Of a DNA stretch of 64,000 nucleotides, positions 62,321-62,990 are shown in pieces. The notes beneath the pieces were generated by a model. The model was given only the letters and a program-made list of their open reading frames with translations. It was not told the DNA's origin and did no database searches. The number at the start of each line of letters is the position of its first letter. Within the stretch, counting starts at the first letter, position 1. Source of the DNA: Spirochaetia bacterium (lineage in GTDB: Bacteria > Spirochaetota > Spirochaetia > WTKD01 > G963693115); the NCBI GenBank assembly GCA_965196605.1, contig CBDAKK010000008.1, forward strand, positions 608,291 through 672,290, given 5' to 3'. Position numbers and translations under genes: made by a program.

Positions 62321-62990
62321 GTCTTTGTGGGGGAGCCCCCCACACCCCCCCTTGGGTAAGACGCGGTATTTGCATAAGCGCTTTGTGGGGGCAAGCCCCC
62401 ACACCCCCACGCAGAGTATGACGCTTATTTGCGCTCCGTGTGGGTATCTGTTTCATAGCTCACGCGGTATTGCGCTTTGTCTCTTGTTTCCTATGGCGTA
62501 GCCCCACCCGCGTAGCTTCCTAGACTCCGTTCCTTAGTCCCTATGGCGTAGCCACACAGGATGTTTTTCTTTTCTTTTTGGTTCTTTTTCTTTTCTTTTG
62601 ATGCAAGCTCCATATTTGCACCGCACAGCGGTGCTTATGCAATAGTTTGCATCCCCTCGCTTCGCTCGTGAGCGTCCTCACAGCCGCCCCATGGACGGGG
62701 CATTAAGGCTGACAGGGATGTTAAAAGAAAAGAAAAAGAACGGCCATCCGAGGTATTTGCGTAGTGCGCCTAGCGCCGTGGCAACAAGAGACGCTCATAC
62801 AATACCGCTGGTAGTATGCCACCGCATATCGCGCTAGCGTCTTAGCCGCAGAAAAAGCTCATAGCAAATAGCGCAAGCAAAACACACACGGCGTGCAGCC
62901 CTCACGCGCGGAGCGCAGAATGACCAGCAGTGGGGGTGTGGGGGCGTGCTGCCCCCGCAAAGGCAGACTGCCCCCACAAGGCAACACTGG
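62321..62990. repeat. Largest copy of the foldback repeat family (duplicated left terminus, long internal arms)
   Basis: Two tandem left termini (62321-62380, 62381-62444) with GTGGGGG-N4/5-CCCCCAC hairpins. Polypyrimidine 62565-62600 vs polypurine 62722-62740. Hairpin GCCCCATGGACGGGGC. Right terminus CGCGCGGAGCGCAG...GTGGGGGTGTGGGGGCGTGCTGCCCCCGCAAAGG. Confidence 0.85.

What the first reader, a model, noticed from the sequence alone, without database searches (positions are those of the whole stretch)
62321..62990. Dispersed foldback (MITE-like) repeat family with GTGGGGG-loop-CCCCCAC hairpin termini
The valS/uvrC divergent intergenic region is filled by a roughly 670-bp element. Its left end (CTTTGTGGGGGCAAGCCCCCACACCCCCAC...TGCGCTCCGTGTGGG) is the approximate reverse complement of its right end (CCCTCACGCGCGGAGCGCA...GTGGGGGTGTGGGGGCGTGCTGCCCCCGCAAAGG). 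Internal segments pair the same way: polypyrimidine vs polypurine runs, and CATATCGCGCTAGCG-type boxes. Small hairpins of the form GCCCC-ATGGAC-GGGGC sit near the centre.

Related copies occur at 22335-22531, 43314-43775 and 47830-48462. No transposase is present in the window. The whole element can fold into one long hairpin, which resembles foldback or MITE elements. I cannot match this family to a named one.
Basis: seen in the sequence. Interest (0 to 1): 0.65.

Follow-up and report, generated by a model that had tools for sequence, protein, structure and literature searches.

The report
Mosaic foldback repeat family, spirochaete genome
The valS-uvrC spacer is filled by one copy of a real, non-coding, GC-rich inverted-repeat (MITE/BIME-like) DNA family found only in this small spirochaete genome; it is a new family of a familiar kind of selfish intergenic repeat, and its way of moving is not shown.

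Summary
Four intergenic loci share homologous modules: A 22321-22545, B 43301-43785, C 47830-48470 and D 62321-62990.

Each full copy has this layout:
- an end hairpin (T), CTTTGTGGGGG-loop-CCCCCACACCCCC;
- a 150-200-nt arm;
- a polypyrimidine tract;
- a directional core, made of module M plus hairpins with an ATGGAC loop;
- a polypurine tract;
- the inverted arm and inverted T.

D and B fold into long imperfect hairpins (z -11.3 and -8.6). All six arms are homologous well beyond the G/C runs (z 6-23).

The loci are 54-60% GC, against 24-41% in other spacers. They have no coding signal and no Rfam match. None of 47 window ORFs matches a transposase.

In the source sample's contigs the modules reach 13-40 times single-copy depth per exact variant. 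Copies end sharply at GCCTTTGTGGGG, next to unique flanks.

Several features are not typical of a MITE:
- no target-site duplication;
- ragged or tandem ends;
- two arm subtypes;
- the two arms of one element are less alike than arms of different elements;
- the core is better conserved than the ends, and its orientation does not follow the end type.

No homologue turned up in any collection searched. My verdict is a new, lineage-specific mosaic foldback/MITE-like family. Mobility is inferred, not shown. Interest is modest.

The parts
62323..62380 (+). D: short outer end unit (T1). It is the hairpin CTTTGTGGGGGAGCCCCCCACACCCCCC plus GGTAAGACGCGGTATTTGCATAAGCG, a 58-nt unit lying in tandem with the next end unit.
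   Evidence: Direct-repeat family D2 and D9. The hairpin folds at -8.5 kcal/mol. Seven other contigs per run continue with the same GGTATTTGCATAAGCG-T junction.
62381..62580 (+). D: left arm, subtype beta. It begins with end hairpin T2 (62381-62410).
   Evidence: MAFFT alignment A1. Arm-to-arm alignments give z 6-17. The closest arm is B's right arm.
62564..62599 (+). D: polypyrimidine tract. It is the left half of a 19-nt perfect inverted repeat that brackets the core.
   Evidence: Inverted repeat I2, 62581-62599 with 62723-62741, 100% complementary. Tandem Repeats Finder also reports it.
62600..62676 (+). D: core module M. It holds the hairpin GCACCGC-ACA-GCGGTGC (62618-62634) and the palindrome ATGCAA-TAGT-TTGCAT (62637-62652).
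   Evidence: 97% identical to A 22481-22542 (inverted) and 92.5% to C 47995-48034. It has the highest depth in the source runs. Exact 36-40-mers reach depth 350-1100, against 27 for single-copy sequence.
62677..62722 (+). D: core hairpin unit. The stem-loop is GCCCC-ATGGAC-GGGGC (62686-62701), followed by ATTAAGGCTGACAGGGATG.
   Evidence: Five such units lie in the four loci, all on the same strand relative to M. The stems covary: 2 of 6 pairs change on both sides and 90% of cells are paired.
62723..62741 (+). D: polypurine tract. It is the right half of the 19-nt perfect inverted repeat.
   Evidence: inverted repeat I2.
62742..62965 (-). D: right arm, subtype alpha, inverted. It ends in T' (62930-62965).
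   Evidence: The hairpin folds at -10 kcal/mol.
62966..62990 (-). D: partial second inverted end unit (CTGCCCCCACAAGGCAACA).
   Evidence: Direct repeat D6, period 19. Tandem Repeats Finder reports 62949-62989.
43301..43785 (+). B: a complete copy.
- End hairpin T: 43314-43342
- Alpha arm: to 43490
- Polypyrimidine tract: 43474-43492
- Hairpin unit: 43506-43529
- Polypurine tract: 43544-43562
- Beta arm, inverted
- T': 43738-43773

Its left end overlaps the last codons of the peptidase C11 gene, whose stop codon is at 43311-43313.
   Evidence: It folds with z -8.6. Depth steps up at 43738 and down at 43773-43779, with unique flanks beyond.
47830..48470 (+). C: a rearranged copy.
- Left arm truncated, with no T hairpin
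- 41-nt polypyrimidine/polypurine palindrome: 47853-47893
- Module M: 47995-48034
- Three hairpin units: stem-loops 48070-48093, 48113-48128 and 48262-48277, the first two in 42-nt tandem
- Polypurine tract: 48296-48312
- Alpha arm, inverted
- T': 48433-48455
   Evidence: (family D12). It folds weakly, z -2.3.
22321..22545 (-). A: a short, one-ended copy whose core is in the opposite orientation.
- End hairpin T: 22335-22363
- A short arm
- A truncated hairpin unit
- Inverted module M: 22481-22542
   Evidence: Depth steps up at 22332-22337, with unique or tandem-T flanks outside.

Best explanation
This is a lineage-specific family of non-coding, non-autonomous, GC-rich composite palindromic repeats. 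It is foldback/MITE-like, with BIME-like mosaicism, and it has colonised intergenic spacers of a small (about 1.14 Mb) spirochaete genome.

**Layout of the basic element.** Two homologous arms of about 150-200 nt lie in inverted orientation. Each is tipped by an 8-bp G/C hairpin (the T end, GCCTTTGTGGGGG...). They bracket a directional core made of module M plus one or more hairpins with an ATGGAC loop. The core lies between a polypyrimidine tract and a polypurine tract that are inverted copies of each other.

**Shown.**
- The modules are homologous between loci.
- The arms are arranged as inverted repeats.
- The elements can fold back on themselves.
- Ends are sharp and lie next to unique flanks.
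- Modules occur at tens of copies.
- The sequence does not code for protein.
- The composition is GC-rich for this genome.

**Inferred.**
- Copies were spread by an enzyme encoded elsewhere, or since lost. This would be a transposase or recombinase that recognises the hairpin-tipped ends as duplex inverted repeats or as single-strand hairpins.
- After insertion, recombination or gene conversion between copies, slippage at the polypyrimidine/polypurine tracts, tandem duplication of end units and deletions produced today's mosaics.
- Recombination between the inverted arms can flip the core. That would explain why core orientation does not follow end type.
- Any effect on the flanking genes is secondary. 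In D the element occupies the whole valS-uvrC control region, apart from 39 bp beside valS and 23 bp beside uvrC.
For: - Four loci share modules, and nothing else in the 64 kb does.
- All six arms align with z 6-23 against shuffles, at 74-88% identity.
- D and B fold with z -11.3 and -8.6.
- The loci are 54-60% GC, against 44% for the window and 24-41% for other large spacers. They fill 4 of the 9 largest spacers.
- Open frames across the loci match no Pfam family, and nothing credible appears in Rfam.
- In the source sample's contigs, depth steps from about 25-34 to about 1300-1900 exactly at the T ends (22332-22337 and 43738-43773). Beyond them, other copies continue into long, mutually unlike sequence.
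- Exact 36-40-mers of the M core have depth 350-1100, against 27 for single copy. That means 13-40 identical copies per variant.
- Extrapolating from the window gives about 55-70 loci per 1.14 Mb.
- Many joints between non-adjacent modules, some on opposite strands, show that the modules are shuffled in other copies.
- B is alpha arm, core(+), beta' arm, while D is beta arm, core(+), alpha' arm. A carries the core inverted relative to the same end type.
Against: - No target-site duplication flanks B or D.
- No empty site could be examined. The nearest relative (ValS 72% identical) lacks the family in the 22.7 kb examined around its valS and is not syntenic on the uvrC side.
- None of 47 window ORFs matches a transposase or recombinase in Pfam, and the rest of the genome could not be read.
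- Ends are ragged, with tandem T units.
- The ends are less conserved than the core. At 95% likeness or more, B's left arm is single copy while its core is at 1400-2300 depth. Classical MITEs show the opposite.
- Summed contig depths are inflated by overlapping unitigs. The sample is a metagenome, so some copies could belong to another replicon or strain.
Confidence: 0.55

Rival explanations
1. A REP/BIME-type system. The small G/C hairpins (the T ends and/or the ATGGAC-loop units) would be REP-like sequences, spread as single-strand hairpins by a single-copy RAYT or IS200/IS605-type Y1 transposase. The arms and linkers would be BIME-like mosaic motifs, and the inverted pairs would be oversized REPINs.
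For: - The hairpins are GC-rich, with 5-8-bp stems whose sequence covaries while the loop stays fixed. Loose ends from other copies add a fourth stem variant, CGTCCC/GGGACG.
- The modules are arranged as a mosaic, with tandem short T units.
- The location is strictly intergenic.
- There is no target-site duplication, as expected for Y1 transposases (from established knowledge).
Against: - T is not headed by the GTAG or CGTC tag named in the title of the REP-superfamily survey PMC3733652. It is flanked by CTTT and ACCCCC (read directly from the sequence).
- The flanking motifs invert together with the hairpin, so these are true terminal inverted repeats, not same-strand ends.
- The elements are 5-10 times longer than REPINs.
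- No Y1 transposase was found among the window ORFs.
Confidence: 0.15
2. The conserved, directional core (M plus the ATGGAC-loop hairpins) is the functional part. It would be a family of cis-acting structured RNAs or protein-binding hairpin arrays, for example mRNA-end stabilisers, attenuators or nucleoid-protein sites. The arms would be only its carrier.
For: - The core is the best conserved part, at 93-97% between loci against 75-85% for the arms, and has the highest copy number.
- All hairpin units share one strand relative to M.
- Stem changes are compensatory, and one G-T pair is allowed only on the given strand.
- The palindrome ATGCAA-N4-TTGCAT looks like the binding site of a dimeric protein (inference).
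Against: - There are only five units in the window, and covariation statistics on five sequences are weak.
- Palindromic DNA can also keep its symmetry through templated repair.
- There is no Rfam match.
- There is no consistent position or orientation relative to genes. Copies lie at 5' ends in D, at 3' plus 5' ends in A-C, and A is inverted.
- No promoter or terminator signal exceeds chance.
- No RNA data exist.
Confidence: 0.12
3. Two nested families. An older palindromic element (the T ends plus arms) would have at its apex the polypyrimidine/polypurine palindrome. That apex was later invaded by a younger small element (the core), which uses the 19-nt polypyrimidine/polypurine inverted repeats as its own ends and targets hairpin or cruciform tips.
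For: - A perfect 19-nt inverted repeat brackets the core in D.
- C keeps an 'empty' 41-nt polypyrimidine/polypurine palindrome at 47853-47893, with no core.
- The core is much more uniform than the arms.
- Core length varies between copies (B has no M, D has M, C has three hairpin units), while its boundaries stay fixed.
Against: - No core was seen outside an arm context in the window.
- Low-complexity tracts are prone to slippage and to chance symmetry.
- M-like sequence (TTGCATAAGC) also lies beside T ends, so the modules are not cleanly separable.
Confidence: 0.1
4. Not mobile at all. These would be remnants of a decayed multi-copy gene or regulatory region, duplicated by ordinary recombination during genome reduction.
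For: - The genome shows signs of decay and duplication: a split lactate permease, duplicated cyclase genes and other paralogues.
- There is no target-site duplication and no transposase in the window.
Against: - No frame matches Pfam, and no protein homologue exists.
- Copies end sharply at the same hairpin, next to unrelated flanks, in many contigs.
- The inverted-arm architecture recurs.
- GC content is far above that of other spacers.
Confidence: 0.06

Closest known systems
Bacterial MITEs (for example Neisseria Correia elements, Rickettsia palindromic elements, enterobacterial ERIC/IRU)
   Same: - Short (225-670 bp) and non-coding
- Mostly intergenic and dispersed
- Inverted ends
- The whole length can fold into a hairpin
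- Lineage-restricted
- One copy (B) overlaps the 3' end of a gene, as RPE and Correia elements sometimes do
   Different: - The inverted arms are about 200 nt, so nearly the whole element is an inverted repeat
- No target-site duplication
- The ends are less conserved than the centre
- Strong shuffling of modules, and tandem end units
- No sequence similarity to any collection searched
- No partner IS is known
REP / BIME / REPIN elements with RAYT transposases (E. coli, Pseudomonas)
   Same: - GC-rich hairpins with covarying stems
- Inverted pairs that form longer hairpins
- Mosaic combination with linker motifs
- Strictly extragenic
- Tens to hundreds of copies
   Different: - No GTAG or CGTC head next to the stem
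- The units are 5-10 times larger
- The hairpin units in the core are in direct tandem rather than alternating
- No RAYT was seen in the window
Eukaryotic Foldback (FB) elements
   Same: - Long, internally repetitive inverted arms with a variable middle
- Can form one long hairpin
- Very heterogeneous copies
- The middle can appear in either orientation
   Different: The resemblance is in architecture only. The host here is a bacterium, the elements are far smaller, and no FB-type transposase or homology exists.
GC clusters and double-hairpin elements of AT-rich mitochondrial genomes
   Same: GC-rich palindromic modules that stand out from AT-rich spacers in a small genome, often nested or in tandem.
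   Different: Those are units of 30-50 bp. Here the hairpins are only the tips and core of a much larger composite, and there is no homology.

Membership tests
MITE | Small (under about 800 bp) with no coding capacity | tested here: met
   The copies are 225-670 bp. Ten open frames across the loci match no Pfam family at E<=1. The only protein match was the window's own ORF.
MITE | Terminal inverted repeats | tested here: met
   B and D have inverted, homologous ends and arms. A and C each have one intact end only.
MITE | Target-site duplication flanking the element | tested here: not met
   No direct repeat of 6 nt or more sits symmetrically outside the ends of B or D. The matches in A and C lie inside element modules. 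Ragged ends and only four copies limit the power of this test.
MITE | Many dispersed copies with discrete ends next to unrelated flanks | tested here: met
   There are four loci in 64 kb. Depth steps at the T ends, and the flanks of other copies are long and mutually unlike (agreement 0.5-0.65).
MITE | A related autonomous IS with matching ends, or a transposase acting from elsewhere | not testable with these tools
   None of 47 window ORFs matches a transposase.
MITE | Insertion polymorphism (filled and empty sites) | tested here: inconclusive
   The only relative found (ValS 72% identical) has different neighbours upstream of valS and no family members in the 22.7 kb examined. No joint skipping a whole element was listed in runs X1-X3, but the lists were cut short.
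REP/BIME (RAYT-associated) | A 20-40-nt GC-rich imperfect palindrome | tested here: met
   The T hairpins have 8-bp stems and fold at -6.6 to -10 kcal/mol. The core hairpins have 5-6-bp stems.
REP/BIME (RAYT-associated) | A conserved GTAG or CGTC tetranucleotide at one end of the palindrome (PMC3733652) | tested here: not met
   T is flanked by CTTT on one side and ACCCCC on the other in all copies. The nearest CGTC (the reverse of GACGC) is about 15 nt inside the arm.
REP/BIME (RAYT-associated) | A RAYT (Y1 transposase) gene in the genome, usually flanked by REPs | not testable with these tools
   None among the window ORFs.
IS200/IS605-derived PATE | Subterminal hairpins on the same strand at both ends, with no terminal inverted repeats | tested here: not met
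   The motifs flanking the hairpin (CTTT and ACCCCC) invert together with it at the right ends, so these are true inverted ends.
Any Rfam RNA family | A score at or above the family's gathering threshold | tested here: not met
   There are no hits in the window at gathering scores. The best sub-threshold score is 17.6 bits, against a cut-off of 50.

The most novel reading that the evidence does not exclude
The directional, highly uniform core may be a working cassette that this reduced genome has spread through its spacers. The core is module M, with its ATGCAA-N4-TTGCAT palindrome, plus tandem hairpins with invariant ATGGAC loops and covarying stems. It is bracketed by perfect polypyrimidine/polypurine inverted repeats. 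It could be a structured RNA, a protein-binding hairpin array, or a segment that flips by recombination between the arms and so changes what faces the neighbouring genes.
Probability: 0.1. Interest if true: 0.6.

Novelty: new member of a known kind. Interest (0 to 1): 0.3.

Why it matters
If the reading is right, this small, apparently host-associated spirochaete genome carries an expanded private family of GC-rich palindromic repeats. They make up about 3% of this window, and tens of copies are inferred across the genome.

This matters in several practical ways:
- **Assembly.** Contigs in the public runs break at these modules.
- **Annotation.** At least one spurious 114-aa ORF is called inside copy B.
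- **Gene control.** The element fills almost all of the valS-uvrC control region.
- **Genome reduction.** It may help explain how repeats persist or spread while a genome shrinks.

It does not change any general concept unless the conserved core turns out to have a function.

Tried and rejected
- **Genome-collection scan.** I scanned with TTGTGGGGG-N3-6-CCCCCACACCCCC. It returned only the G/C hairpin itself in high-GC actinomycetes and Chloroflexi, with no extended similarity.
- **Other DNA searches.** All found nothing: metagenome scans with two M-module patterns, a viral-contig scan, and blastn of D against plasmids and phages.
- **Fetching more copies through spurious ORFs.** The 139-aa frame of B found only the window's own ORF P0122. 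A 1139-aa concatenate of frames found nothing, probably because unrelated candidates swamped it.
- **Reading more of the genome.** Exact-protein look-ups for the window's ValS and for P0122 returned 'not on record', so the rest of the genome could not be read.
- **Rfam.** No family was found at gathering or permissive thresholds. The microRNA-like hits come from the polypyrimidine/polypurine palindrome.
- **Promoter and terminator scans.** Results were at chance level.
- **Target-site duplications.** None was found.
- **RNA runs.** None is available.
- **Literature.** Exact-motif and topic searches found nothing relevant.
- **Rejected ideas.** CRISPR array, integron attC sites, tRNA- or tmRNA-derived repeat, and decayed coding sequence.
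- **Copy-number correction.** I first read the summed depth of about 20,000 as about 650 copies. One search shows many overlapping 36-61-nt unitigs, so I now rely on per-unitig depths, which give 13-40 copies per exact variant.

Full report
**Context**

The window is 44% GC. It comes from a spirochaete. Its ValS is 100% identical to a database protein on a 1,144,098-bp contig. The next best ValS is 72% identical and sits on a 1.8-Mb contig. All other hits are 59% identical or less, and the named ones are from Spirochaetia such as Alkalispirochaeta and Spirochaeta.

The finding lies between valS (59603-62281, minus strand) and uvrC (63014 onward, plus strand; GIY-YIG and UvrC RNase H-like domains). 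This is a divergent spacer of 732 bp.

Yes.

- Within 62321-62990 the ends are inverted copies of each other. Arms 62391-62410 and 62930-62949 are 95% complementary.
- A 19-nt polypyrimidine tract (62581-62599) is perfectly complementary to a polypurine tract (62723-62741).
- The hairpin GCCCC-ATGGAC-GGGGC is at 62686-62701.
- As single-stranded DNA, the 670 nt fold to -157 kcal/mol, against -108 +/- 4 for dinucleotide shuffles (z -11.3).
- GTGGGGG-N6-CCCCCAC occurs three times, against 0.00 expected.
- The similarity is not limited to G/C runs. When the six arms are oriented from tip to centre, they align over 150-200 nt at 74-88% identity, and every pair scores z 6-23 above shuffles.

**Anatomy**

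A full copy (B 43301-43785, D 62321-62990) reads as follows:

1. End unit T, (GC)CTTTGTGGGGG-loop-CCCCCACACCCCC. It has an 8-bp stem and folds at -7 to -10 kcal/mol.
2. An arm beginning GTAAGACGC..GCGCTNCGCGCG.
3. A polypyrimidine tract.
4. The core.
5. A polypurine tract.
6. The inverted arm.
7. The inverted T.

The core is directional. It holds module M (in D, 62600-62676), which contains the hairpin GCACCGC-ACA-GCGGTGC and the palindrome ATGCAA-TAGT-TTGCAT. M is followed by one to three units of the form stem-AYGGAY-stem-GCATTAAGGCTGNCARGGATG.

The window has five such units, all on the same strand relative to M. Two of them lie in 42-nt tandem in C. Their stems differ by compensatory changes: GCCCC/GGGGC, CGTGCC/GGCACG and GCGCC/GGTGC. 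A further CGTCCC/GGGACG appears in other copies in the runs. Two of six pairs change on both sides and 90% of cells are paired, but with only five sequences this is weak.

The other copies depart from this plan:

- **D** has a 58-nt short T unit in tandem outside its left arm, and a partial second T outside its right arm.
- **C** has lost its left T. It carries a 41-nt polypyrimidine/polypurine palindrome with no core (47853-47893), followed by a long core, and it folds weakly (z -2.3).
- **A** is a 225-bp one-ended copy with M inverted relative to the same type of end.

The arms fall into two subtypes, told apart by an 8-nt indel among other differences. Subtype alpha comprises B-left, C-right and D-right. 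Subtype beta comprises B-right and D-left, with A-left resembling it. The two arms of one element are the least similar pairs (B z 10, D z 6). B is alpha, core(+), beta', while D is beta, core(+), alpha'. Core orientation therefore does not follow arm or end type.

**What it is not**

- None of 47 ORFs in the window matches a transposase, recombinase or RAYT in Pfam.
- Open frames across the loci match no Pfam family and have no protein homologue other than the window's own spurious ORF.
- There is no Rfam family and no tRNA.
- Promoter-like and terminator-like sites are at chance level.
- No similar DNA exists in the plasmid or phage collections, or in metagenome or viral contigs.
- The G/C hairpin alone recurs by chance in high-GC genomes.
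- The 22.7-kb valS region of the closest relative (37% GC) has none of the modules. It shares the L-PSP, H+-PPase, 262-aa gene and valS order, but not the uvrC side.

**Copy number and ends, from the source sample**

Three public runs of one sample hold the window. I laid their contigs on D. Single-copy flanks have depth 28-33, while the modules reach hundreds to thousands.

The sums are inflated because many 36-61-nt unitigs overlap. Individual exact 36-40-mers of the M core have depth 89-1100, against 27 for single copy. That corresponds to 3-40 identical copies per variant, and 24 variants are at least 97% alike. This agrees in order of magnitude with extrapolation from the window: 3-4 copies per 64 kb gives about 55-70 per 1.14 Mb.

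At 95% likeness or more, B's left arm is single copy, while its core has depth 1400-2300. The core is therefore more uniform than the ends.

At the ends, depth steps up or down within a few bases:

- At 22332-22337, in front of CTTTGTGGGGG.
- At 43738 and 43773-43779, after CCCCACAAAGGCA.

Beyond these steps, other copies continue for up to 255 nt of mutually unlike sequence (agreement 0.5-0.65), or into another short T unit. This is good evidence for discrete element ends at GCCTTTGTGGGG. Many joints between non-adjacent modules, some on opposite strands, show module shuffling in other copies.

**Composition**

The four loci are 54-60% GC. Other large spacers are 24-41% GC. The family fills 4 of the 9 largest spacers and makes up 3.2% of the window.

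**Interpretation**

The best-supported reading is a private family of non-autonomous composite palindromic repeats.

- It is MITE/foldback-like in having long inverted arms with hairpin tips, discrete ends, no coding capacity, an intergenic location and many copies.
- It is BIME-like in its mosaic of modules.

Mobility is inferred and not shown. No target-site duplication was found. No empty site could be examined, and no enzyme is in view.

Four features suggest heavy recombination or gene conversion between and within copies: a core more uniform than the ends, arms mismatched within an element, a core in either orientation, and tandem end units. They may also indicate a younger core element nested at the apex of an older palindrome. 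The core-less apex palindrome in C fits that idea.

A REP/RAYT-like single-strand hairpin mechanism is the main rival. It would fit the missing duplication and the covarying stems. It does not fit the missing GTAG/CGTC head (PMC3733652), or the fact that the flanking motifs invert together with the hairpin. A functional role for the core, as RNA or as a protein-binding array, cannot be excluded and would be the more interesting outcome.

**Effect on neighbours (inference)**

- In D the element leaves only 39 bp before the valS start codon. That stretch holds a TATAAT box and a Shine-Dalgarno sequence. It leaves 23 bp before the uvrC start codon. Upstream promoter elements of both genes must therefore lie inside the element or at its ends.
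- In B the similarity to other copies starts 13 nt before the stop codon of the peptidase C11 gene. The element probably supplies that gene's last codons.

**Verdict**

This is a new member of a known kind, of modest interest.

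Noticed in passing
window 36347-37450 and 37478-38038: The L-lactate permease is split into two adjacent ORFs. They match Pfam Lactate_perm profile positions 3-304 and 358-521. It is probably a pseudogene, which fits a genome undergoing reduction.
   Followed up: no
window 53617-55695 and 56242-58314 (minus strand), with their downstream spacers to 56208 and 58825: Two tandem paralogous genes encode adenylate/guanylate cyclases with dCache sensor domains. 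They are about 95% identical at the DNA level, the duplication includes the flanking spacers, and the GC content is unusually low (32-35%). The relative's syntenic region lacks them, so this is a recent duplication or an acquired block.
   Followed up: partly
window 29625-29706: There are 3.7 tandem copies of a 22-nt unit, AAAAAGTCTAGACATTTCCGGC, at 95% identity. Each holds the palindrome GTCTAGAC. The array lies in the spacer upstream of a branched-chain amino-acid ABC transporter operon and looks like an operator array.
   Followed up: no
window 18921-22304, repeats at 20211-20813: A 1127-aa ORF with no Pfam match contains 2.5 copies of a 240-nt (80-aa) tandem repeat. The GC and AT skews are strongly positive here. 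Element A sits directly downstream.
   Followed up: no
window 58964-59506, repeats at 59128-59386: A 180-aa ORF is built of 33-nt (11-aa) tandem repeats. It has weak apolipoprotein-like (amphipathic helix) matches, below Pfam's cut-off (32.3 bits against 90). A 135-aa ORF lies antisense to it.
   Followed up: no
window about 50000-54000: Cumulative GC skew rises steadily to about 52 kb and then falls. Gene orientation switches from plus to minus at 53.5 kb, where genes converge. The window may span the replication terminus, or this may simply be a change of strand bias.
   Followed up: no
window 44693-47707: A cluster of ORFs without Pfam matches (372, 256 and 268 aa) contains internal paralogous segments: 45601-45774 with 46656-46829, 46199-46477 with 47271-47549, and 46528-46645 with 47594-47711, all at 85-88% identity. 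It lies between elements B and C and is a lineage-specific duplicated gene family.
   Followed up: no
window 43491-43856: A 114-aa protein (P0122) in the public protein collection is called entirely inside repeat copy B and its flank. It has no homologue and is almost certainly a spurious gene call caused by the repeat.
   Followed up: yes
window 34682-35035: This 354-bp spacer has only 24% GC, the most AT-rich in the window. It lies upstream of a 349-aa ORF with no Pfam match.
   Followed up: no
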